Shown here: piece by piece, positions 2,750 to 63,818 of the stretch
Position numbering within the stretch: the stretch's first letter is position 1
Layout of the letters: the number at the start of each line of letters is the position of its first letter
IMG/VR virus record: IMGVR_UViG_3300037067_006949
Span: 61,427 to 125,426 of that record
Origin: a virus
Taxonomy: Duplodnaviria; Caudoviricetes
Length of the DNA stretch: 64,000 bases
Direction: 5' to 3' (one strand)
Notes under the pieces: generated by a model
Seen by the model: the letters and a program-made list of their open reading frames with translations, nothing else
What the model was told of the DNA's origin: nothing
Databases searched by the model: none
Position numbers and translations under genes: made by a program

Positions 2750-5700
2750 ATGAATAATTATACAATATATCACCTGCATTCAGACTTTTCATTATTAGAC
2801 TCGGCTACAAAATATGACGATTATATTTACAAGGCTAAAGAATCTGGAATGCTTTCTATTGGATTCTCTGAACATTCTTCGGTTTTTAATTGGATCAAAA
2901 AGAAACAAAAATGTGACGAAAATGAAATCAAATATATCCATGGTCAAGAATTTTATATAACCCTTAGCCTAGAAGAAAGGGTAAGGGATAATTGGCATTG
3001 TATCCTTATTGCAAAAAATTTAGATGGCATTAAGGAACTCAACAGGTTATCCAGCATCGGGTATAATCGAGACGGTCATTACTATTATGATCCTAGAATA
3101 TCGCTACAAGAACTCATAACAACGAGTAATAACATCATAGTTACCTCTGCCTGTTTGGGAGGAATCTTAAACTCTGGCAACGAAAATGTCGAAAAGGTAT
3201 TTTTGGATTTCATGATCGACAATAAGGATAGATGCTTCTTAGAGGTTCAACATCACAATAATGAAGAACAATTCGCCTATAATAAAAAGCTGTTAGATTT
3301 AAGCAATCATTATGGTCTGAGACTTATTGCCGGAACTGATACACACAGCCTTGATAAAAAGCATGAAAAGCTTCGCACAATTCTACAAAAATCCAAGAAC
3401 ATAAATTTCCCCAACGAAGAAAGTTGGGATTTGGTATTCAAAACATATGACGAGCTTGTAGAATCTTACGCCGTTCAAAATTCATTACCAAAAAATGTTT
3501 ATATGGAAGCCATCGAAAATACTAATGTAATGGCAGATATGGTAGAACATTTTGATCTAAGTCTTGAATATAAGTATCCAAAAATATATGAGAATTCAGA
3601 TGAGATATTTAAAGAAAAAGTTTATGAAGGATTGAAGAACAAGGGTCTTGGCGATAATAAAGATTACATAAAGAGAATTGAATACGAAACAAAAGCAATT
3701 GCAAAAAATGGTGCAATTGATTATTTGCTACTTCAAGAAAAAATTACGTCGTGGTGTAGAAATAACGATATTATGCCAGGATATTCTAGAGGTTCTGTTT
3801 CTGGATGTTTATGCGCATATCTTCTCGGAATCACGGATATTGATTCTCTCAAGTTTAACATGAACTTTGAAAGATTTATGAATGCAGAAAGAGTCAGTCT
3901 TAGCGATATTGATATTGACTATCCGCCCGACAAAAGAGAACAAGTAAAAGAATATATTTTCAACAATCTAGGATTAAATTGCTGTGATATTGTTGCATTT
4001 AATACGGTTGCAGAAAAAGGTTCAATTAGAGATGTTGGAAGAGCATTAGAAATTCCCCTTTCAGAGATCAATGAAATTTCAAAGAATGTAGGATCGTGGG
4101 GCGGAGAAGAAGATAAGAGAAAATATCCAGAACTTTTTGAGCTTTCCGGTCAATTAGAGGGAGTGATTACTTCATCTGGAGTTCATCCGTGTGGCGTGGT
4201 AACATCAACGCTTGATCTTGAAGAAGAGCTTGGTACATTTACAACGTCTACCGACATTAGAAGAATATCACAAGTTGATATGAAAGGTATCGACAGCGTG
4301 AATTTTGTCAAGCTCGACATTCTCGGACTAGACAACATTCAGATTATAAATGACACATGTAGGCTTGCTGGAATTGAAAGATTAAATCCAGACAATGTTA
4401 ACTTTGAAGATGAAAAGGTATGGGATGACATTATGGGCAACAGCATTGGCGTTTTCCAATGGGAATCTGATTTCGCCCACCAGACTTATAAGAAACTGTT
4501 CAGTAAAGAAACGTTAAAAAAGATAGAAGAGAAGACAGGCAAGATTGATCGTTTGGCTCTTCTATCCATGGCAAATGGCGCAATCCGTCCTGCTGGAGAG
4601 TCCTACAGAGATGCCATGTGCGAAGGAGAGTTCAAAGATAATGGGCACGAAGCATTGAACGAAATGCTTAAATCAACCATGGGTTACTTAGTATATCAGG
4701 AAGACATCTTAAGATTTCTTCATGAATTCTGCGGTTATTCCATGGGAAAGGCGGACGTTGTTCGCCGTGGTTTCGCCAAAAAAGTAGGAACAGAAAAGTT
4801 TATTCCACATATTAAGTCCGGCTTTATTAAGACGATGAAGGAAAAATACGGTACACCAGAGGAAGAATCTGAAGAAATCGTTGAATCATTCCTTACGGTT
4901 ATTGAAGACGCAAGCCTATATTTGTTCAGCCTAAACCACTCTTATCCGTATAGCATGATTGGATATGTATGCGCATACTTGAGATATTATTATAAGCTAG
5001 AATTTGTTACAACTATGTTGAATATCAATAAAGACAACATAGAGAAGAGCGCAACGATAATTGATTATGCGAAAGAGAACAAAATATTAATCAAGTCTCC
5101 TAAGTTCAGATTTTCTAGGTCTTCTTACTTTTTTGATAGAGAAACCAATTCAATATACAAGGATTTGTCGTCCATAAAATATCTGAATAGCGAATGCGGA
5201 GAACAGCTTTATGAAGCAGGGAAATTAAAATTCGAAAGCTTTGTTGACCTTCTTGTGTATATAGAAGAGAATTTGAAGGTAAATTCAAGGCAATTGGAAA
5301 CGTTAATCAAAATAAAATTCTTTGACGAATTCGGTGGGAATAAAAAACTTCTAGATGTTTACAAGGAATTCTCATCTGGAAAAAATAAATATACGAATAA
5401 GTTAAAGGAAGAGACCAAAGCTAAAAGACTAGAGCACATCAAAGAGTTTGAAAAAGAAACGCCAAATGAATTCATGAATGTTCTGGATCAAATATACTTT
5501 GAACAAGACTCCCTTGGTTACATACAAGCAACTTATGATGGCATAGATAAAAGATTGATTTTCGTAGGGTCTCTGGACACAAAATATGCCCCAAGAATAG
5601 AGGCATACTGTTTGGCTAATGGCAAAATATCATCTTTGAAACTGTACAGGAAAACATATGATTCCAATCCATTTGGCGGAGGCGAAATACTTTTTTGCAA

Positions 5701-15934: not shown

Positions 15935-16278
15935 TGGAAGACGATAATAAAGCTAGTTTTATTGTGGTGGTTCAAAACGATGAATTGACTATTGATACCG
16001 TAATGAAAGATATTCTTGAAGATTTCATGCCTGATGACGAATTGATTGTTGTACTAAATAATAGCACAGATTCAAGCGAGTCAAAAATTGATAAATATTT
16101 GCCAAAACTTCCTAATACTTATACAAAAATTATTCATGCAGATTCAAGAGAAGATAGGGCGTTCGATATTAAAGAGGCTTTGGATGTTGGCAAAGAAAAT
16201 TCAAGTAATGATTTGAATTTCATTATTTATGGAACGGAATATAACCCCGTAGAGTGGACAAAGGATGACAATAATTGA
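15934..16278 (+). CDS. Short GT2-like protein (N-terminal Rossmann half only)
   Basis: SFIVVVQNDE...ELIVVLNNSTDSS resembles the GT2 N-terminus; only 114 aa; no downstream DxD motif seen. Confidence 0.5.
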   Translation: MEDDNKASFIVVVQNDELTIDTVMKDILEDFMPDDELIVVLNNSTDSSESKIDKYLPKLPNTYTKIIHADSREDRAFDIKEALDVGKENSSNDLNFIIYGTEYNPVEWTKDDNN

Positions 16279-17041
16279 ACAATTAACGGATAAAGATTTA
16301 AAAAGATTTTGGTCTAAAGTTGATAAAAGAGGAGAAAACGATTGTTGGGAATGGAGGGGGTGCAAAACAGCAAAAGGAGCTGGAATATTTTGTGCATCAA
16401 TTAATAATATCAATAAAAGCATTACTGCTCATCATGTTTCCTATTATATTGTAAGTGGAATAGATGCATTTGATAAGCCAATGGAAAAATATTGCAACAC
16501 AATAGGATGTTGCAACCCGAATCATTATGGGATAAAAATTAAAAAAACCATAAAAGATTTTAAAATAGATGAAAAATTTATGCAAAGGTTTTGGAAAAAA
16601 GTAAGAGTCGGCAACCACAATGGTTGCTGGGAGTGGATGGCATCAAAGGACTATAAGGGCTACGGACAATTTAGTGTAAATGGGAAAAGTATTCGATCTC
16701 ATAGAATTTCATATATGATAAAAAATGGAATTGGTAGCATTCCATCTGGAATGTCTGTTTGTCATAGTTGTGATAATAGATTATGTTGTAATCCAAAGCA
16801 TTTGTTTCTAGGAACATATGAAGATAATAACCATGACAGACATAAAAAGGGAAGAGACGGTTCTGCAAAAGGGGAAGCTCATGGTGCTGCAAAGTTAAAT
16901 AATGAAAAAGTTTTGGAAATAAGGTATTTATTACAATTGTCTTCTTTATCAAGAACAGAAATTGCAAAATTATATAGTGTAAGTAAATCTACGATAAATA
17001 GAATATCAACTGGAGAAGGATGGAAAAATATAACCATATGA
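16265..17041 (+). CDS. HNH homing endonuclease with duplicated HNH module and C-terminal HTH
   Basis: Two RFWxKV...CWEW units, VCHSCDNRLCCNPKHLFLGT..DN; HGAAKL...VSKSTINRI. Confidence 0.88.
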   Translation: MTIIEQLTDKDLKRFWSKVDKRGENDCWEWRGCKTAKGAGIFCASINNINKSITAHHVSYYIVSGIDAFDKPMEKYCNTIGCCNPNHYGIKIKKTIKDFKIDEKFMQRFWKKVRVGNHNGCWEWMASKDYKGYGQFSVNGKSIRSHRISYMIKNGIGSIPSGMSVCHSCDNRLCCNPKHLFLGTYEDNNHDRHKKGRDGSAKGEAHGAAKLNNEKVLEIRYLLQLSSLSRTEIAKLYSVSKSTINRISTGEGWKNITI

Positions 17042-20148: not shown

Positions 20149-22122
20149 ATGGTAAAAGGTTTAACTGACTTTAAGCTAAGTGAAAATTTTATAGAAAAAT
20201 ATAAAACCAAACAACCGCCATTTGGTTACAATGGTTTAGGCGAACTAGTATATATGCGCACTTATTCGAGAATTAAGGATGATGGCAAAAACGAACTATG
20301 GTGGGAAACTATTCGTCGCGTAGTAGAAGGTATTTATAATATTCAAAAAGAACATATTGATCATGGAAATCTGGGCTGGAATGCTATGAAAGCTCAAAAA
20401 AGCGCTCAAGAGATGTATGATCTCATTTTTAACATCAAGTTTCTTCCTAGCGGAAGGGCTTTATGGGCATTAGGAAGTAAGGTAATTACAGAAAAAAGAC
20501 TGGCAGAAGCATTATATAACTGTTCGTTCATTTCAACTGAAAGCATAAAAGATGATCCGTCCTTATCCTTTAGGTATGCAATGGACATGTTAATGTGCGG
20601 TGTTGGAGTTGGATTTGATGTAAGAGGCGCGGGGACAATTACAATCAAAAAACGATCTGAAAAAATGGAAGAATATCTTATTCCAGATAGCAGAGAAGGA
20701 TGGGTAGAATCTGTTGGAAAAGTAATTCTATCATTTTTTGGTCATCCTACCCCAATTTTAGATTATTCTCTTATAAGACCAGAAGGTTCTCCAATTAAAA
20801 CTTTTGGTGGAATTTCTGCCGGAGAAAAACCATTAAAAGAATTGCATAATTCTATTATTAATATTTTATCTTTATGCGAAAATAAAGAAATAACACAAAG
20901 AAACATTGCCGATATCTTCAATTTAATAGGCAAGGCTGTTGTAGCCGGAAATGTTCGTAGAAGCGCAGAAGTTGCTCTTGGGTTTGAGAATGATGAATTT
21001 TTAAATCTGAAAAATTATACCATAAATCCAGAAAGAGAATCTTTTGGTTGGTCGTCTAATAATTCTGTTATGGCGGAAATTGGTTCTGATTATAGTAAAA
21101 TTGCAGAAAGAATTAGAGATAACGCGGAACCAGGAATCGTCTGGATTGAAAATTTACGTCAATTTGGTCGTATGCGAGAATTAGAAGCAGATAATAAAGA
21201 TTTTAGAATTATGGGAGGAAATCCATGTTTAGAAATTGGATTGGAATCATCTGAATTATGCAATCTAACTGAGGTGTTTCCAAATAGGAACAATACCAAA
21301 GAAGAATTTTTAAGAACATTAAAATATGCATATTTATTTGCAAAATCCGTCACACTAATTGAAACGTCTTGGGTCGAGACAAATCGAGTTATGATGCGCA
21401 ATCGCAGATTGGGGGTTTCTGTTACTGGAATATCACAATTTATCGCAGACCATGGAATAAGCGAACTAAAAGATTGGCTAAAAACAGGATATGACACACT
21501 CAAAAATTACGACAATATTTACAGTGAATGGTTTGCCATTCCTAGGTCTATAAAATTAAGTACTGTAAAACCATCTGGAACTCTTAGTCTTCTTGGTGGT
21601 GCAACTCCAGGAGTACATTACCCAGAAAGCAAATATTATATTCGTAGAGTAAGACTTGCAAACAATTCATCTTTATTATCAGTTTTAGAGAAATCGGGAT
21701 ATAAAACAGAACCAGCGTTTGGACAAGAAGATTCAACTATTGTTGTAGAGTTCCCAATTTTTGTAGGAGAAAAAGTTCGAACGCAAGAAGATGTTTCTAT
21801 GTGGGAACAATTAGCACAGGCTGCATTTATGCAAAAATATTGGTCTGATAATGCAGTTTCTATTACAGTTACTTTTGATCCAGAAACAGAAGGAAAAGAC
21901 TTAGAACGAGCGTTAGATTTTTACCAATATCAGTTAAAGGGCGTAAGTTTTTTGCCAAGAATAAAAGAGGGAGCATATAAACAAATGCCTTATGAAAAAA
22001 TTGATAAAGAAACCTATGAAAATATGATAAGTAAATTAACGCCATTAGATTTTGGCTCTATGACCAACTCATCCGAAGCAGAAATAGAAAAATATTGCAC
22101 CAATGATACGTGTTCATTATGA
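20149..22122 (+). CDS. nrdJ: Class II (adenosylcobalamin-dependent) ribonucleotide reductase, monomeric RTPR type
   Basis: RTYSR, PSGRALW, VVAGNVRRSA, GGNPCLEI, TVKPSGT, C-terminal CTNDTC. Confidence 0.93.
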   Translation: MVKGLTDFKLSENFIEKYKTKQPPFGYNGLGELVYMRTYSRIKDDGKNELWWETIRRVVEGIYNIQKEHIDHGNLGWNAMKAQKSAQEMYDLIFNIKFLPSGRALWALGSKVITEKRLAEALYNCSFISTESIKDDPSLSFRYAMDMLMCGVGVGFDVRGAGTITIKKRSEKMEEYLIPDSREGWVESVGKVILSFFGHPTPILDYSLIRPEGSPIKTFGGISAGEKPLKELHNSIINILSLCENKEITQRNIADIFNLIGKAVVAGNVRRSAEVALGFENDEFLNLKNYTINPERESFGWSSNNSVMAEIGSDYSKIAERIRDNAEPGIVWIENLRQFGRMRELEADNKDFRIMGGNPCLEIGLESSELCNLTEVFPNRNNTKEEFLRTLKYAYLFAKSVTLIETSWVETNRVMMRNRRLGVSVTGISQFIADHGISELKDWLKTGYDTLKNYDNIYSEWFAIPRSIKLSTVKPSGTLSLLGGATPGVHYPESKYYIRRVRLANNSSLLSVLEKSGYKTEPAFGQEDSTIVVEFPIFVGEKVRTQEDVSMWEQLAQAAFMQKYWSDNAVSITVTFDPETEGKDLERALDFYQYQLKGVSFLPRIKEGAYKQMPYEKIDKETYENMISKLTPLDFGSMTNSSEAEIEKYCTNDTCSL

Positions 22123-22955
22123 AAAATAATAAAATTTCAGACAATGAATTAATTGATTTTTATATAAATAAAAACTATTCTATTTTAAAAATATCTAAAA
22201 TAACAAAAATTTATACAGAATGGATTTCTAAAAGGTTAAAAATACTTGATATAAAAATAAGAAACGGAAATGATACAAGTTATTATGAAAATAGAAAAAA
22301 AATATTTTACCCATGCGTTATATGTGGAAACCCAAAAACTATAGAATATCACAAATCTGGAAATTTTTATTGTTCAAGACACATTTCACAACTGGATGAA
22401 TATGGAAAAATATTACCTAGAACAAAATTTGATAAAAATGAAATACATATTCTTGGAAAATATGTTTCAATGGATTTATATAATTCTAAAAATAATAAAG
22501 TTGGAGAAAGTTTATTTGATCTAGAGGACTTAGAAGTTTTAATAAAATATAAATGGCAAAAAGATAAACAAGGCTATGTTGTTACATTAATAAAAGATGA
22601 CGAAACGGGAGATAAGCACAGATTGACAATGCATAGATTTTTATTAAATCCACAAAAATATGAGATTATTGATCATATAAATTGTGACAAATCAGACAAC
22701 AGAAAAGAAAATCTTAGAATTGTTGACAAAAGTAAAAATGAAATGAATAAACCTTTGAGGAATGATAATTCTTGTGGTTATAGAGGAGTTTATTGGAATA
22801 AAAACAAAAATTTATGGATTGCAGAAATGAACTTGAATGGTAAAAAGATTTTAAATAAAGGATTCAAAAATAAAGAGGATGCGATTTTATGCAGAGAAGA
22901 ATCTGAGGTAAAATATTTTGGAGAATATAGATACAATGATGCAAATAAAAATTAA
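22119..22955 (+). CDS. HNH homing endonuclease with C-terminal AP2-like domain
   Basis: MHRFLL...IDHINCDKSDNRKENLR; GYRGVYW...W.AE; markedly AT-rich. Confidence 0.88.
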   Translation: MKNNKISDNELIDFYINKNYSILKISKITKIYTEWISKRLKILDIKIRNGNDTSYYENRKKIFYPCVICGNPKTIEYHKSGNFYCSRHISQLDEYGKILPRTKFDKNEIHILGKYVSMDLYNSKNNKVGESLFDLEDLEVLIKYKWQKDKQGYVVTLIKDDETGDKHRLTMHRFLLNPQKYEIIDHINCDKSDNRKENLRIVDKSKNEMNKPLRNDNSCGYRGVYWNKNKNLWIAEMNLNGKKILNKGFKNKEDAILCREESEVKYFGEYRYNDANKN

Positions 22956-60085: not shown

Positions 60086-61165
60086 TTAAGAATTTATCAT
60101 AACGCTATTATATTCTTCTTCTGTAATTATATTTAATTTTGCTTTATATCCATAAAGATATATGGCGGCTTCATTATATGCTATGGCAGCCAATATCTCA
60201 TTATCAAAAAGTCCAAGATATAATCTTCCATCGTCAGACATAATTCTGGCTTGAAATTTTTTAGAAGCCTTATGAAAATTTACTCCAATAAAATTACTAC
60301 TAGGATTCAATTTAATTTTTTTTGTTCCTCTACCAGAATCAGAGAGATTTTTTCTATATTCATCAGTCAATGGTCTTTCCTTCATAATGGCAGACCATTT
60401 CTCTTTTCTCTCTTTTGTCCAAGAATCTGAAATTTTCTTGTTTCTATCTTCCGAATAAATTATACCCTTCCTAGAATCAGACATTTTCTTTTTGGTTTCT
60501 TCGGATGCTCTTTTTCCTTTTTTTATATCTGACATCTTTTTTAAAGATTCGGGAGTATGCTTTTTGCCTTTCATAGGAGATGGATTACCCATCTTTGCTT
60601 CTGACATTTTCTTTTTAGATTCATCAGAAACTTCATGCCCCATATTAGATAAAGATATTTTTAACCTAGTTTCTTCGCTATTTTTTCTAAGTTTTCCCGC
60701 ATCAGATTGCTTCTTTCTAGTCTCTTCTGTTGGGATATATCCCATATGACCCTCAGAAAGATGTTTTCGATATTCTTCAGACCTTGGAGGTTGAGCCTTT
60801 GCAGATTCAGACATTTTTTGTTTTGTTTCTTCAGTATGCTTTCTTCCACTCATAGGTGGCTCTCCTATGGGGGCAATATTATATCCATTTTTATTATCCA
60901 TTGAACCAAATTTATCAACCCAAAATAATTCTCTTTCAGTTAAAATATTTTTATCACATTCTTCAACAACGTAAATAATAAAATTTTCTTCTCCATATTT
61001 TGACCAAGACCTTTGTAATACAATACATTGGTCAATACCCAAATTTAATTGTCTCTTATGTTGATTTATTCTAACTCTTATATTTTTGGATTGACCAATA
61101 TATTTTTTGCCATCTAAAATATTTTCAAAACAATAAATTCCGCCATTCTTAGTAAATTTTTCCAT
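60086..61165 (-). CDS. GIY-YIG homing endonuclease with NUMOD3-like repeats and AP2-like C-terminus
   Basis: GIYCFENILDGKKYIGQS..R...H; GYN; many [ST]EE[TS]xxKMS repeats; FIGV...YLGLF...AA.AYN. Confidence 0.92.
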   Translation of the reverse strand: MEKFTKNGGIYCFENILDGKKYIGQSKNIRVRINQHKRQLNLGIDQCIVLQRSWSKYGEENFIIYVVEECDKNILTERELFWVDKFGSMDNKNGYNIAPIGEPPMSGRKHTEETKQKMSESAKAQPPRSEEYRKHLSEGHMGYIPTEETRKKQSDAGKLRKNSEETRLKISLSNMGHEVSDESKKKMSEAKMGNPSPMKGKKHTPESLKKMSDIKKGKRASEETKKKMSDSRKGIIYSEDRNKKISDSWTKERKEKWSAIMKERPLTDEYRKNLSDSGRGTKKIKLNPSSNFIGVNFHKASKKFQARIMSDDGRLYLGLFDNEILAAIAYNEAAIYLYGYKAKLNIITEEEYNSVMINS

Positions 61166-61250
61166 TTTATACCCTCAAGCCCTTAAAATAAAAATGGGAA
61201 GAGGGGCTTCTCTTGTCAGCAAGCTCATGACTTCCTGCCTATCCCATCTT
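61166..61250 (-). promoter_or_regulatory. Structured 5' leader (three stems plus pseudoknot), copy 1
   Basis: AGAUGGG-AUAG-GCAGG[aagUCAUGAg]CUUGC-UGAC-AAGAG[AAGCCC]CUCUU-CCCAUUU; the loop is complementary to GGGCUU next to the RBS. Confidence 0.7.
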
Positions 61251-61281
61251 TCACTACCTAAATTTACTTAAAAACAATATT

Positions 61282-62601
61282 TTATGCGACCACTACGTTC
61301 ATAACGTCAACGACACCAAATTCTTCATCGAAAATAAAGCATTGAGTTCTCTTTTCAGATTGTTGATAACCTCTTTCATTAGTCCATCTAGACCAACCCG
61401 AAATTGTAGGCAAGCGGTATATCTCAAGAAAACCTTGCTTTTCGTAAGCCATGGCGGTATGCAAGTGAGCCAAAATCCAATACATGTGCAATGAATCGCT
61501 CCACTCATCTTTTGCTTCTGTGGTAATAATTTCCAAAGCACGTTTAATAGGAACATCATGAGACATAGCAATCAAATTCTTACCAAACTTATAATATTTT
61601 CGTGGAACAGGAGAATTTTCAAAAGTTACATTTCTATCGCCCCTAAAATAAAATTCAACGGCTTTTGATATTCCATAATAAGAATGTGTGTCGTGATTTG
61701 AATTTACAGAATAAACTTCAACTGGTGCAATCGGAAGGAACGATTCGATCATCTTAATAACCAACTCTGTTGCACTATCCACCATATCAAACCATGAAGT
61801 GTCATTGTCCTGTGGAGTTCCGGCAGTTGTCGTTCCAAAAATATTATCGCAATTCAAGAAGTCATTTCCGAGCAAAAGCACAACTTTTTCGAACTTTTGT
61901 CCTTTTATTCTTTGCAATATTTGAGAAATTGCCTTCTGAACTAAATCTTCTGCAATGGTCATATTATATTCATTGCCAGTTGATTTTTGCGTCGCCATCA
62001 TACCATAATGTAAATCTGCAAATGGAACAAACAACATTTTGCCATTTGATACATAATCTGCTTTATATTTTAATTTATTGAAATTTTTGCTTGCGAGATT
62101 ATCAAAAAGTTGATCTACATTTTTCTCAGTCCATTCATTTTTCTTTTTTACTAAACGAACTTCGATGTGGTAAAGCGGAACAATAAGCATTTTTCCGGTG
62201 TCATCTACATCGCCTTTTATTACTTTGCCATTTTCTACTTGCCACTGTACTTTACGATCTTTGCGATATCCTTCACTGGTCTTTACTTTGAATCGTTCAA
62301 CTTCCCACTTATCTGTGTCAATATTAAATTGTTTAATAATATCTTCTTGCGTGAGCATACGTTTTGAGGCGCAAACTACATTAATAAACCCGTCACCCTC
62401 TTCATAGGACGAACCAGTTTCAAAATCCTCTTGTTCATTTTTTGCAGGAATACCCTGTCTCTTTCTTGCGCTTTTAAATGCCCACCGTAGATTTTCGCCG
62501 CTCTGGTAGCCCCATTTTACTGCTAATGTTTTTAAAGTTTCTCCTAGTGTATAATTTGATAAATAATGCTTATATACGTCATCAAAAACTTCTTTTCTCA
62601 A
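61282..62601 (-). CDS. Calcineurin-like metallophosphoesterase
   Basis: ADLHYG, GNDF, SNHD, SHD, AHLH; TTG start at 62601 after AGGAG. Confidence 0.82.
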   Translation of the reverse strand: MRKEVFDDVYKHYLSNYTLGETLKTLAVKWGYQSGENLRWAFKSARKRQGIPAKNEQEDFETGSSYEEGDGFINVVCASKRMLTQEDIIKQFNIDTDKWEVERFKVKTSEGYRKDRKVQWQVENGKVIKGDVDDTGKMLIVPLYHIEVRLVKKKNEWTEKNVDQLFDNLASKNFNKLKYKADYVSNGKMLFVPFADLHYGMMATQKSTGNEYNMTIAEDLVQKAISQILQRIKGQKFEKVVLLLGNDFLNCDNIFGTTTAGTPQDNDTSWFDMVDSATELVIKMIESFLPIAPVEVYSVNSNHDTHSYYGISKAVEFYFRGDRNVTFENSPVPRKYYKFGKNLIAMSHDVPIKRALEIITTEAKDEWSDSLHMYWILAHLHTAMAYEKQGFLEIYRLPTISGWSRWTNERGYQQSEKRTQCFIFDEEFGVVDVMNVVVA

Positions 62602-62662
62602 AGTTATCTCCTTGATAAATTCTTTGTTAAATAAAATATGAAGGCACAAATATGCCCTCTAG

Positions 62663-62739
62663 AGCCTTAAGGGGGAATCGAACCCGAACCAACCTAGCGA
62701 TTACAGATCGCTCGCTCTGCCAATATGAGCTATTAAGGC
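62663..62739 (-). tRNA. tRNA-Thr(UGU)-like gene, atypical
   Basis: Acceptor GCCTTAA/TTAAGGC; D arm GCTC/GAGC; anticodon stem AGCGA/TCGCT with loop TC-TGT-AA; TTCGATT T loop. C at position 33, 3-nt bulge in the T stem, no encoded CCA. Confidence 0.7.
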
Positions 62740-62759
62740 CTAATGGCATTTAGCCATTT

Positions 62760-63365
62760 TTACTTCCTATTTATTCTCGAACTTTTTCTGTTTTTTCCAA
62801 CCCTCTTATAGGTATCTGTTAATGAATGACAGTTTGGGCATAAAATCTCCACGTTAGACAAAACATTATTGTTAGCATTGCCATCAGCATGATGCATATC
62901 CAAGCAGACAGTACCCGACGTCGGATTCTGAACTCCCCAACCACATTTTTGGCATTTAGAATCGTATTTTAACATCAAATATTTTCTAAGAGAACTAGAA
63001 GAAACGTTTTCTCCGCATTCTATCTTTTTGGCAACTTCTTTCAATCGAAACAACGATTGACACTTAAAAGAGCAATATTTAAAACTATGTCTATCAATTT
63101 TTTTTCCACAAAAAATACAAAAATGTTTTTTCGGTTTATGATTTTTATTAAATTTAAAACTCATAGCTAACCCCACACAACTTTGCGAACAATATTTATT
63201 TTTTCTTCTATCATAAAAAATAGGTTTTCCACATTGAATGCATAAATTAGGATTTTTATAATATTCATCTTCTTTTATTTTGTTATTTGCCCTTTTGTTT
63301 ATCCATCCCCTTTGTATGGCATCTATTGATCTCTGCCTGCTCTCTTCTGATTTATAATAAGACAT
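62760..63365 (-). CDS. HNH endonuclease with zinc-finger repeats, adjacent to the tRNA
   Basis: CQKC...LDMHHADGNANNNVLSNVEILCPNCHS; two CxxC..YCS..C units. Confidence 0.88.
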   Translation of the reverse strand: MSYYKSEESRQRSIDAIQRGWINKRANNKIKEDEYYKNPNLCIQCGKPIFYDRRKNKYCSQSCVGLAMSFKFNKNHKPKKHFCIFCGKKIDRHSFKYCSFKCQSLFRLKEVAKKIECGENVSSSSLRKYLMLKYDSKCQKCGWGVQNPTSGTVCLDMHHADGNANNNVLSNVEILCPNCHSLTDTYKRVGKNRKSSRINRK

Positions 63366-63467
63366 TTATTTCCTTTCCTGAGAATAAATCTTCCTGATAA
63401 ATTAATAAAAAGAGAAGAACTCAGGAATTCTTATCAAAGCGTTCATGATGCGCTTCTATCTCTTTTT
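63366..63467 (-). promoter_or_regulatory. Structured 5' leader (three stems plus pseudoknot), copy 2
   Basis: AAAAAGAG-AUAG-AAGCG[caUCAUGAa]CGCUU-UGAU-AAGAAUU[CCUG]AGUUCUU-CUCUUUUU; UUCCUGAG is complementary to CUCAGGAA next to the RBS. Confidence 0.7.
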
Positions 63468-63472
63468 ATGTG

Positions 63473-63755
63473 TCTTGGGGCTGACGAATAATCTGCAACA
63501 ATAAAAATGTCAGCCCCAAGATAAGAAAAATTCTTCCCTTTCGGGCATCCATAAAAACGCTTCCCATAATTATATGGGCATCTTTACAGTCACACAGGCG
63601 CGACCCGTGAGGCCACATTTCTGTGGACTTAAAATTCTGATGCTTTCGCAGAGCAGAGACGTTACAGCATCCCATTTATTTGGTAGAGAAACACCTGATG
63701 TTACATTTGAACTCGACCTCTTATTAGTCGCATGTCGAGTAGCGACTCACATTTG
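63473..63755 (-). ncRNA. Candidate structured non-coding RNA
   Basis: Downstream of a promoter; 5' H-type pseudoknot, GAAA-capped stems, 13-bp terminal stem; no convincing ORF. Confidence 0.55.
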
Positions 63756-63762
63756 TTATATT

Positions 63763-63791
63763 ATATTACCATACTATTACAAATTTGTCAA
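63763..63791 (-). promoter_or_regulatory. Sigma70-type promoter
   Basis: TTGACA, 17 nt spacer ending TGG, TAATAT. Confidence 0.7.
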
Positions 63792-63818
63792 GGTTAAAAC
63801 TTGCTTAAAATATTACTT

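What the first reader, a model, noticed from the sequence alone, without database searches (positions are those of the whole stretch)
61166..63467. Covarying RNA leader shared by two unrelated homing endonuclease genes
Seen: upstream of the GIY-YIG gene (61191-61250) and the HNH gene (63407-63467) is the same architecture: stem1-AUAG-stem2[loop UCAUGA]-UGAY-stem3-stem1'. Stem sequences differ but stay paired. In each copy the stem3 loop region is complementary to the bases immediately 5' of the Shine-Dalgarno (AAGCCC/GGGCUU; UUCCUGAG/CUCAGGAA). Inference: a cis-regulatory three-way junction with a pseudoknot controlling translation of toxic nucleases, or a small ribozyme or mobility element travelling with them. 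I cannot match it to a named family.
Basis: partly seen in the sequence, partly recalled or inferred. Interest (0 to 1): 0.72.

Follow-up and report, generated by a model that had tools for sequence, protein, structure and literature searches.

The report
Structured leader RNA of phage homing endonucleases
Both nuclease genes start with the same small three-armed RNA fold, a member of a widespread phage RNA family that is not in Rfam and that I did not find described. One loop pairs with the gene's ribosome-binding region and another loop is always self-complementary, so the fold most likely controls how much of the DNA-cutting enzyme is made.

Summary
On the minus strand, window 61190-61251 (before the GIY-YIG gene) and 63406-63468 (before the HNH gene) fold into the same three-way junction. 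The genome holds two more copies.

- **Not catalogued.** Rfam 15 has no match.
- **Widespread.** A covariance model found 52 distinct copies in uncultured phage contigs. 95% of cells are paired and 17 of 19 pairs show compensatory changes.
- **Tied to homing endonucleases.** About 31 of 36 distinct downstream genes are homing endonucleases from unrelated families.
- **Loop 3 pairs downstream.** It is complementary to a site 5-10 nt after the fold (at least 6 nt in 68% of leaders, against 6% when loops are swapped between leaders). It usually matches a second site over the Shine-Dalgarno or start codon.
- **Loop 2 is self-complementary.** It carries U-N-A-U-N'-A. All four complementary N/N' pairs occur in full leaders, and none of five non-complementary ones does (0 of 251 pattern matches). 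This points to loop-loop kissing between two copies.
- **Part of the mobile cassette.** A relative without the nuclease also lacks the leader.

The likely role is translational control. That is inferred, not shown. A ribozyme or riboswitch is unlikely, because divergent members change the junction bases. Earlier notes of this scan report the same family in eight other genomes. I found no paper describing it.

The parts
61190..61251 (-). Leader copy 1, three-way junction. Stem1 is 61251-61243 with 61198-61190. J12 AUAG is 61242-61239. Stem2 is 61238-61234 with 61223-61219. Loop2 is 61233-61224, with the palindrome UCAUGA at 61230-61225. J23 UGAC is 61218-61215. Stem3 is 61214-61210 with 61203-61199. 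Loop3 AAGCCC is 61209-61204.
   Evidence: Sequence. The MFE fold gives this structure. CM R1 scores it 62.7 bits, E=4e-14. Found by the architecture descriptor.
61177..61182 (-). Site A of copy 1: GGGCUU, the complement of loop3, 7 nt after stem1' and directly 5' of the SD.
   Evidence: The loop3:site duplex is -9.3 kcal/mol.
61163..61176 (-). SD GAGGG (61176-61172) and start codon (61165-61163) of the GIY-YIG gene.
60086..61165 (-). GIY-YIG / NUMOD3 / AP2 homing endonuclease gene, 359 aa.
   Evidence: Pfam: GIY-YIG 9e-12, NUMOD3 1.5e-25. phrog_314 4e-41.
63406..63468 (-). Leader copy 2, three-way junction. Stem1 is 63468-63460 with 63414-63406. AUAG is 63459-63456. Stem2 is 63455-63451 with 63441-63437. 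Loop2 is 63450-63442, with UCAUGA at 63448-63443. UGAU is 63436-63433. Stem3 is 63432-63428 with 63419-63415. Loop3 UUCCUGAG is 63427-63420.
   Evidence: Sequence. CM R1 scores it 40.8 bits, E=7e-8. Found by the descriptor.
63391..63397 (-). Site A of copy 2: UCAGGAA, a 7-nt complement of loop3, 8 nt after stem1'.
   Evidence: Duplex -9.7 kcal/mol.
63363..63382 (-). Site B of copy 2: CUCAGGAA (63382-63375), an 8-nt complement of loop3 that overlaps the SD AGGAAAGGA (63379-63371). The start codon is at 63365-63363.
   Evidence: Duplex -11.6 kcal/mol. The nested MFE fold of the whole leader pairs these two segments.
62760..63365 (-). HNH homing endonuclease gene, 201 aa.
   Evidence: phrog_1271 9e-21, phrog_10822 2e-14. 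Weak Pfam HNH match at 5e-4.
62662..62739 (-). tRNA-Thr(UGU), directly downstream of the HNH gene. In other phages the leader often sits directly after a tRNA gene.

Best explanation
The two elements are copies of a conserved, uncatalogued structured RNA that forms the 5' leader of free-standing homing-endonuclease gene cassettes in phages, probably phages of Bacillota.

Shown by comparison:
- It is a three-way junction of about 63 nt, with stem1 and stem3 directly abutting.
- After an A/U-only linker, a downstream segment (site A) pairs with the loop of stem3.
- In most members the same loop can also pair with a second segment (site B), which is the Shine-Dalgarno or start-codon region itself.
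- The loop of stem2 carries a six-base self-complementary word, U-N-A-U-N'-A, whose N and N' covary. The parsimonious partner is therefore the same loop on a second RNA, that is, a kissing dimer.

Inferred: the leader sets the translation rate of the nuclease. When loop3 holds site B, or the pseudoknot at site A abuts the SD, 30S binding is hindered. Site A competes as a decoy. Loop-loop dimerisation may shift this balance as the mRNA accumulates.

The leader moves with the nuclease gene as the 5' end of the mobile cassette, and different nuclease families are exchanged behind it.
For: - **Structure.** 67 matches, 52 distinct. 95.2% of cells are paired, 17 of 19 pairs have double changes, and no shuffle in 500 reaches the observed values. 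An alignment-free check agrees: 58 of 96 pattern matches in phage contigs have at least 4 of 5 stem2 pairs (50 of them a perfect stem2), and all but two of the 58 show the full fold.
- **Gene association.** About 31 of 36 distinct downstream genes are GIY-YIG, HNH or T5orf172-type homing endonucleases from many PHROG families.
- **Loop3 pairing.** A site A complement of at least 6 nt occurs in 68% of leaders, against 6% for swapped loops. For site B the figures are 34% against 6%. Site A starts 5-10 nt after stem1', and site B ends 3-12 nt before the start codon.
- **Loop2.** Full leaders with UAAUUA number 12 of 59 pattern matches, UUAUAA 5 of 53 and UGAUCA 1 of 26. Five non-complementary words give 0 of 251. 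Fisher p=2.8e-8 for the first six words.
- **5' end of the mRNA.** Some copies have a consensus TTGACA-N17-TGnTATAAT promoter ending about 7 nt before stem1. Others have a tRNA 3' end directly upstream.
- **Cassette.** Relative L011 joins the two flanking genes with no leader, HNH or recombinase. L081 has a 62/63-identical leader with a GIY-YIG gene in place of the HNH gene, and homology ends at the start codon.
- **Precedent.** T-even homing endonucleases are held down by RNA structures that sequester the RBS (PMC2988022).
Against: - No expression data exist, so the direction of the effect (brake, timer or enhancer) is unknown.
- Site A is the stronger partner in 34 of 48 leaders. By default this would leave the SD free.
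- Copy 1 has no clear site B.
- The AU-only palindromes give almost no predicted duplex energy: -0.4 to -0.6 kcal/mol, against -5.0 for UCAUGA.
- A few members have a short stem2 without a palindrome (L146, L147, L022:7593, L010:7197).
- Two other HNH genes in this genome (window 16265-17041 and 22110-22955) have no leader. So do ten loci with relatives of the GIY-YIG protein. The leader is therefore not obligatory.
Confidence: 0.6

Rival explanations
1. An mRNA 5'-end module for stability or processing. A compact fold at the very 5' end, formed after a promoter or after tRNA processing, would protect the nuclease mRNA from 5'-dependent decay (RNase J1 or RNase E type). It would not act on translation.
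For: The fold begins about 7 nt after consensus -10 boxes, or a few nt after tRNA 3' ends. The nearest cultured relatives infect Bacillota, where 5' structures and SD-like sites are known stabilisers (my own knowledge, not checked here).
Against: This does not explain why loop3 covaries with the gene's own SD or start-codon region. It also does not explain why loop2 must be self-complementary.
Confidence: 0.14
2. An attenuator that yields a small trans-acting RNA. Transcription often stops in the A/U-rich tract after stem1'. The freed RNA of about 70 nt, whose loop3 is unpaired, would then dock on full-length mRNAs by loop2 kissing and mask site B in trans.
For: Stem1' is followed by an A/U-only stretch with a mean of 4.6 U in 8 nt. 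This model would account for two sites per single loop and for the kissing loop. Site A lies just beyond the putative stop point.
Against: The tract is mixed A/U rather than a U run. The terminator scan called nothing on the minus strand at either copy. Branched terminators are unusual. There are no transcript data.
Confidence: 0.1
3. A self-cleaving ribozyme or a ligand- or protein-binding aptamer (riboswitch) whose core is the junction.
For: GAUAG and UGAHAA are highly conserved in most members, and the fold is compact and includes a pseudoknot.
Against: No Rfam ribozyme or riboswitch model matches, even at E<=10. Members with the same architecture carry other junction bases (L010:3133-3209, L148). 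The variable parts that covary are the pairing loops, not a pocket.
Confidence: 0.05
4. A DNA-level element, such as a recombination or homing boundary or a protein operator made of inverted repeats.
For: The leader sits exactly at the 5' edge of the inserted cassette. It is 98% identical between two phages whose flanks are about 68% identical. TCATGA-type words are also DNA palindromes.
Against: G-U pairs occur on this strand only, and all copies are co-oriented with the gene. Covariation keeps pairing rather than sequence. A fixed DNA-binding protein would not tolerate changes to N/N'. The link between loop3 and the SD has no meaning at the DNA level.
Confidence: 0.05

Closest known systems
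RBS-sequestering RNA structures of T-even homing endonuclease genes (I-TevI, I-TevII, I-TevIII, segB, mobE of Aeh1)
   Same: These are cis RNA structures in the leader of phage homing-endonuclease genes that pair with the ribosome-binding site and limit translation (PMC2988022).
   Different: Those are simple, gene-specific hairpins with no shared fold. They are bypassed by a late promoter placed inside the structure. Here a single conserved three-way-junction family serves many nuclease families, and pairing is between a loop and a linear segment (a pseudoknot). There are usually two alternative sites and a self-complementary loop, and where a promoter is visible it lies upstream of the whole fold.
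Kissing-loop dimerisation hairpins such as the HIV-1 DIS (recalled from memory, not tested)
   Same: A hairpin loop of about 9 nt built as 2 + 6 + 1, with a six-base self-complementary word. Natural variants differ by paired changes at positions 2 and 5.
   Different: That element is in a retroviral genome and serves packaging. This one is in a phage mRNA leader, its word is AU-rich, and dimerisation has not been demonstrated.
SD-sequestering pseudoknot riboswitches (preQ1-II, SAM-II type; recalled from memory)
   Same: A loop and a 3' tail form a pseudoknot that includes or abuts the SD.
   Different: Those have ligand pockets with invariant cores and regulate metabolic genes. They have Rfam models, and none of them matches here.
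phi29 pRNA (recalled from memory)
   Same: A phage RNA built on a three-way junction that multimerises through loop-loop pairing.
   Different: pRNA is a stand-alone packaging RNA with two different complementary loops. The element here is an mRNA leader with one self-complementary loop.

Membership tests
Any Rfam 15 family | A covariance-model match at the family's gathering score | tested here: not met
   The only hit is the tRNA. Nothing overlaps either leader core (61190-61251, 63406-63468) at E<=10 in 60900-63800 except the 3' edge of a chance mir-320 match (61155-61218, 15.9 bits against a 55.5 gathering score).
T-even-type RBS-sequestering hairpin | The SD lies inside a stable simple hairpin stem | tested here: not met
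   The SD or its 5' neighbour pairs with a hairpin loop across the fold, forming a pseudoknot, not a local stem.
T-even-type RBS-sequestering hairpin | A promoter inside the structure gives late transcripts that lack the inhibitory arm | tested here: inconclusive
   No sigma-70-like site lies between stem1' and the SD. Promoters seen in other members lie upstream of the whole fold. Phage-specific promoter types cannot be scanned.
Known self-cleaving ribozyme classes | An invariant catalytic core that matches a class model | tested here: not met
   No Rfam match. The junction bases differ in divergent members.
Known self-cleaving ribozyme classes | Self-cleavage | not testable with these tools
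   This needs an in-vitro assay.
Kissing-loop dimerisation element | A self-complementary loop word kept by compensatory change | tested here: met
   C-G, A-U, U-A and G-C at positions 2/5 all occur in full leaders. Non-complementary words occur in 0 of 251 matches.
Kissing-loop dimerisation element | The RNA forms dimers through that loop | not testable with these tools
   This needs native gels or another biophysical assay. The predicted duplex is weak for the AU-only words.
Intrinsic terminator | A G+C-rich stem followed at once by a U run | tested here: inconclusive
   The tail is 95% A/U but mixed, with a mean of 4.6 U in 8 nt. The scan makes no call on this strand.
tRNA or tRNA-like element | A match from ARAGORN or the tRNA model | tested here: not met
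   Only the tRNA-Thr at 62662-62739 is found.

The most novel reading that the evidence does not exclude
The leader is an RNA-RNA dimerisation switch. Two nuclease mRNAs (or a short leader RNA and an mRNA) kiss through the U-N-A-U-N'-A loop, and this moves loop3 between a decoy site and the ribosome-binding site. Translation of a selfish nuclease would then be tuned by the concentration of its own transcript. Such a protein-free, ligand-free copy-number sensor has not been described for bacterial or phage mRNAs.
Probability: 0.25. Interest if true: 0.88.

Novelty: new variant of a known kind. Interest (0 to 1): 0.78.

Why it matters
Homing endonucleases are the commonest selfish genes in large phages, yet their control is understood only for a few T-even cases, each with its own ad hoc hairpin. 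Here one conserved, modular RNA leader serves many unrelated nuclease families across many uncultured phages.

- **For annotation.** It gives a ready marker for these cassettes and their boundaries.
- **For RNA biology.** It is a compact natural design with a covarying pseudoknot to the ribosome-binding site, a decoy site and a covarying self-complementary loop. It is small enough for structure determination and for simple compensatory-mutation tests.
- **For the field.** It is also a strong candidate for a new Rfam family.

Tried and rejected
- **Rfam.** Gathering and E<=10 searches gave nothing.
- **Phage database.** Megablast of the region against GenBank phages found no match.
- **MAFFT.** Alignment of the 40 cores left-justified the 3' half and was unusable for a model. 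I seeded a model from four equal-length copies instead and realigned.
- **Bacterial genomes.** None of the 80 fetched is a real leader. Prophage or host assignment by this route failed, and absence from bacteria is not proven.
- **Relatives of the GIY-YIG protein.** Ten loci carry no leader.
- **Descriptor without the palindrome requirement.** It produced too many false hits to be useful: 14 in 60 shuffled loci.
- **Palindrome positions 1/6 and 3/4.** No full leaders were found with any other bases, self-complementary or not. Only positions 2/5 give a covariation test.
- **Chance, a tRNA-like element and a plain terminator.** Considered and rejected; see the membership rows.
- **Literature.** Five searches found no description. 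The catalogue of more than 10,000 unnamed phage structured RNAs (PMC10690425) may contain it, but its main text does not mention such a motif and its tables are not held.
Full report
**What is there.** The genes in this part of the window run on the minus strand.
- A 359-aa GIY-YIG/NUMOD3/AP2 homing endonuclease lies at 60086-61165.
- A 201-aa HNH endonuclease lies at 62760-63365.
- A tRNA-Thr lies at 62662-62739.

The exact coordinates are in the parts list. The loop of stem3 is complementary to GGGCUU at 61182-61177, which abuts the SD, and to CUCAGGAA at 63382-63375, which overlaps the SD. The second copy has a further complement, UCAGGAA, at 63397-63391.

**Is it more than chance?** Single-sequence folding energies are ordinary, so the case rests on comparison.
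- The window is the second half of a 125,426-bp IMG/VR virus record.
- A pattern search and then an architecture-only descriptor, which needs no junction sequence and accepts any six-base palindrome, find exactly four copies in that genome. All are on the minus strand, and three shuffles give none.
- The two extra copies are at genome 4946-5008 and 1875-1939.
- The first precedes a third, unrelated HNH gene (phrog_374).
- The second is followed only by a ten-codon ORF whose sequence looks by eye like the N-terminus of that same HNH type. I read it as a relic of a deleted nuclease gene.

**A family.**
- The pattern GATAG-N7-8-TCATGA-N6-TGAHAA hit 96 places in the phage contig collection.
- 58 of those have at least 4 of 5 stem2 pairs (50 a perfect five-pair stem2), and all but two of the 58 show the whole fold. 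The rest score 0-3 pairs, as chance would give.
- A covariance model seeded from four copies found 67 matches, 52 of them distinct. Some lack the search pattern.
- On that alignment 95.2% of cells are paired and 17 of 19 pairs show double changes. The covariation score is 0.787, against 0.208 for shuffles and at most 0.143 for slid partners. The alignment is fitted to the model, which favours the structure, but the margin is very large and the alignment-free count agrees.
- Rfam 15 has nothing here, even at E<=10.

**What it sits in front of.** Of 36 distinct downstream ORFs, about 31 are homing endonucleases.
- The types include GIY-YIG/NUMOD3, at least six separate HNH PHROG groups and a T5orf172 type.
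- The exceptions are a DUF1376 primosomal protein, a small protein like the one upstream of the terminase in this window, and two or three proteins with no nuclease match (L016 and L021 with no match at all; L025 and L069 match only generic endonuclease/HNH PHROG families).
- The leader is not obligatory. Two overlapping-start HNH_3 genes in this window have none, and neither do ten loci encoding relatives of the GIY-YIG protein.

**Loop 3 and two downstream sites.**
- In 56 distinct leaders, a perfect complement of loop3 of at least 6 nt lies within 20 nt of stem1' in 68%. When loops are swapped among leaders the figure is 6%.
- This site A starts 5-10 nt after the fold, beyond a linker that is about 95% A/U.
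- A second complement of at least 6 nt (site B) follows in 34%, against 6% for swapped loops. It ends 3-12 nt before the start codon, so it lies on the SD. In two copies it covers the AUG itself.
- Duplex energies average -8.7 kcal/mol for site A and -7.4 for site B. Site A is stronger in 34 of 48 leaders. In copy 2 of this window site B is stronger.

One loop that can hold either a decoy or the initiation region is the anatomy of a switch. What flips it is unknown.

**Loop 2 is self-complementary.**
- Besides UCAUGA, model-only hits carried UAAUUA and UUAUAA.
- I tested this directly by repeating the pattern scan with positions 2 and 5 changed.
- Full leaders appeared with UAAUUA (12 of 59 matches), UUAUAA (5 of 53) and UGAUCA (1 of 26).
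- None appeared with UAAUGA, UCAUAA, UCAUUA, UUAUGA or UGAUGA (0 of 251). Fisher p=2.8e-8 on the first six words.
- Positions 1/6 and 3/4 never vary.

A Watson-Crick pair between positions 2 and 5 cannot close a two-base loop. A fixed outside partner would not allow the word to change. The simplest partner is therefore the same loop on a second RNA. One contig carries three different words on its four copies. That would keep its leaders from cross-pairing, whereas all four copies in this genome share UCAUGA.

Caveats:
- The AU-only words have almost no predicted duplex energy.
- A few members have a short stem2 with no palindrome.

**Transcript context and mobility.**
- Several members have a consensus TTGACA-N17-TGnTATAAT promoter ending about 7 nt before stem1. 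Others start a few bases after a tRNA 3' end. In both cases the fold is at or near the 5' end of the nuclease mRNA.
- In this genome no such promoter abuts the copies.
- Relative L011 has the HU-like gene followed 14 nt later by the ortholog of the gene at genome 2766-3116. It has no leader, HNH or tyrosine recombinase. The leader therefore belongs to a roughly 2.2-kb inserted cassette.
- Relative L081 is about 68% identical across the upstream genes, yet its leader is 62/63 identical. It drives a GIY-YIG gene instead of the HNH gene, and homology stops at the start codon.
- In L010, the ortholog of this window's GIY-YIG gene has a leader of the same design but with other junction bases and UAAUUA in loop 2. 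The model missed it.

**Mechanism and rivals.**
- I favour translational control, at about 0.6. The pairing partner is always the gene's own initiation region, and RNA sequestration of the RBS is the documented way T-even phages restrain these genes (PMC2988022).
- A pure stabiliser, a terminated trans-acting short RNA, a ribozyme or aptamer, and a DNA-level element are each less able to explain both covarying loops.
- The variable junction bases count against a catalytic or ligand-binding core.

**Host and novelty.**
- The large terminase is 32-40% identical to those of Thomasclavelia, Lysinibacillus, Mammaliicoccus and Clostridioides phages. This fits the promoter and SD types.
- None of 80 pattern matches fetched from bacterial genomes is a real leader.
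- Five literature searches found no description. A 2023 catalogue of more than 10,000 unnamed phage RNA candidates could include it, but I could not check its tables.
- Earlier notes of this scan report the same family in eight other genomes, with the same reading. I had reached mine before reading them.
- As far as I can tell from the few lines shown of those notes, the two-site statistics, the position 2/5 word test and the cassette comparisons are additions made here.

Noticed in passing
window 63470-63791 (minus strand): A strong extended -10 promoter (TTGACA-17-TGgTAATAT, 63791-63763) is followed by about 290 nt of G+C-richer non-coding RNA. That RNA folds far better than shuffles (z=-4.7). 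It includes a terminator-like hairpin at 63578-63563 and a 12-bp hairpin at 63519-63474, just before leader copy 2. There is no Rfam match. It may be an unknown small RNA.
   Followed up: partly
L004:1840-1939 (genome 1840-1939, minus strand): This third leader copy is followed only by a ten-codon ORF (MYKNDLTGKK) that resembles the N-terminus of the phrog_374-type HNH proteins. It looks like the stump of a deleted homing endonuclease, with the leader left behind.
   Followed up: partly
L004:3133-5008 (genome 3133-5008, minus strand): The fourth leader, an HNH gene (4136-4921) and an overlapping tyrosine recombinase gene (3133-4158, Phage_integrase 2.5e-22) form one insertion of about 2.2 kb that is absent from relative L011. 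A homing endonuclease paired with a recombinase is an unusual cassette.
   Followed up: partly
window 16265-17041 and 22110-22955 (plus strand): Two HNH_3 endonuclease genes whose starts overlap the end of the preceding gene. They have no leader, so this phage carries both leader-controlled and translationally coupled nuclease genes.
   Followed up: partly
window 64000 / genome ends: Synteny with L011 runs from genome 2836 across the record's ends to 124896. The record's ends therefore probably join (a circularly permuted or broken assembly), and the four leaders lie within about 10 kb of one another.
   Followed up: no
L010:3133-3252: A divergent leader before the ortholog of this window's GIY-YIG gene. 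It has J12 UAAG, loop2 UAAUUA and J23 UUAUG, with an 8-nt site A. The covariance model does not find it, so the family is wider than the model.
   Followed up: yes
window 61282-62649 (minus strand): A 455-aa ORF between the two nuclease cassettes has no Pfam match. By eye it carries metallophosphoesterase-like motifs (DLHYG, GNDF, SNHD).
   Followed up: no
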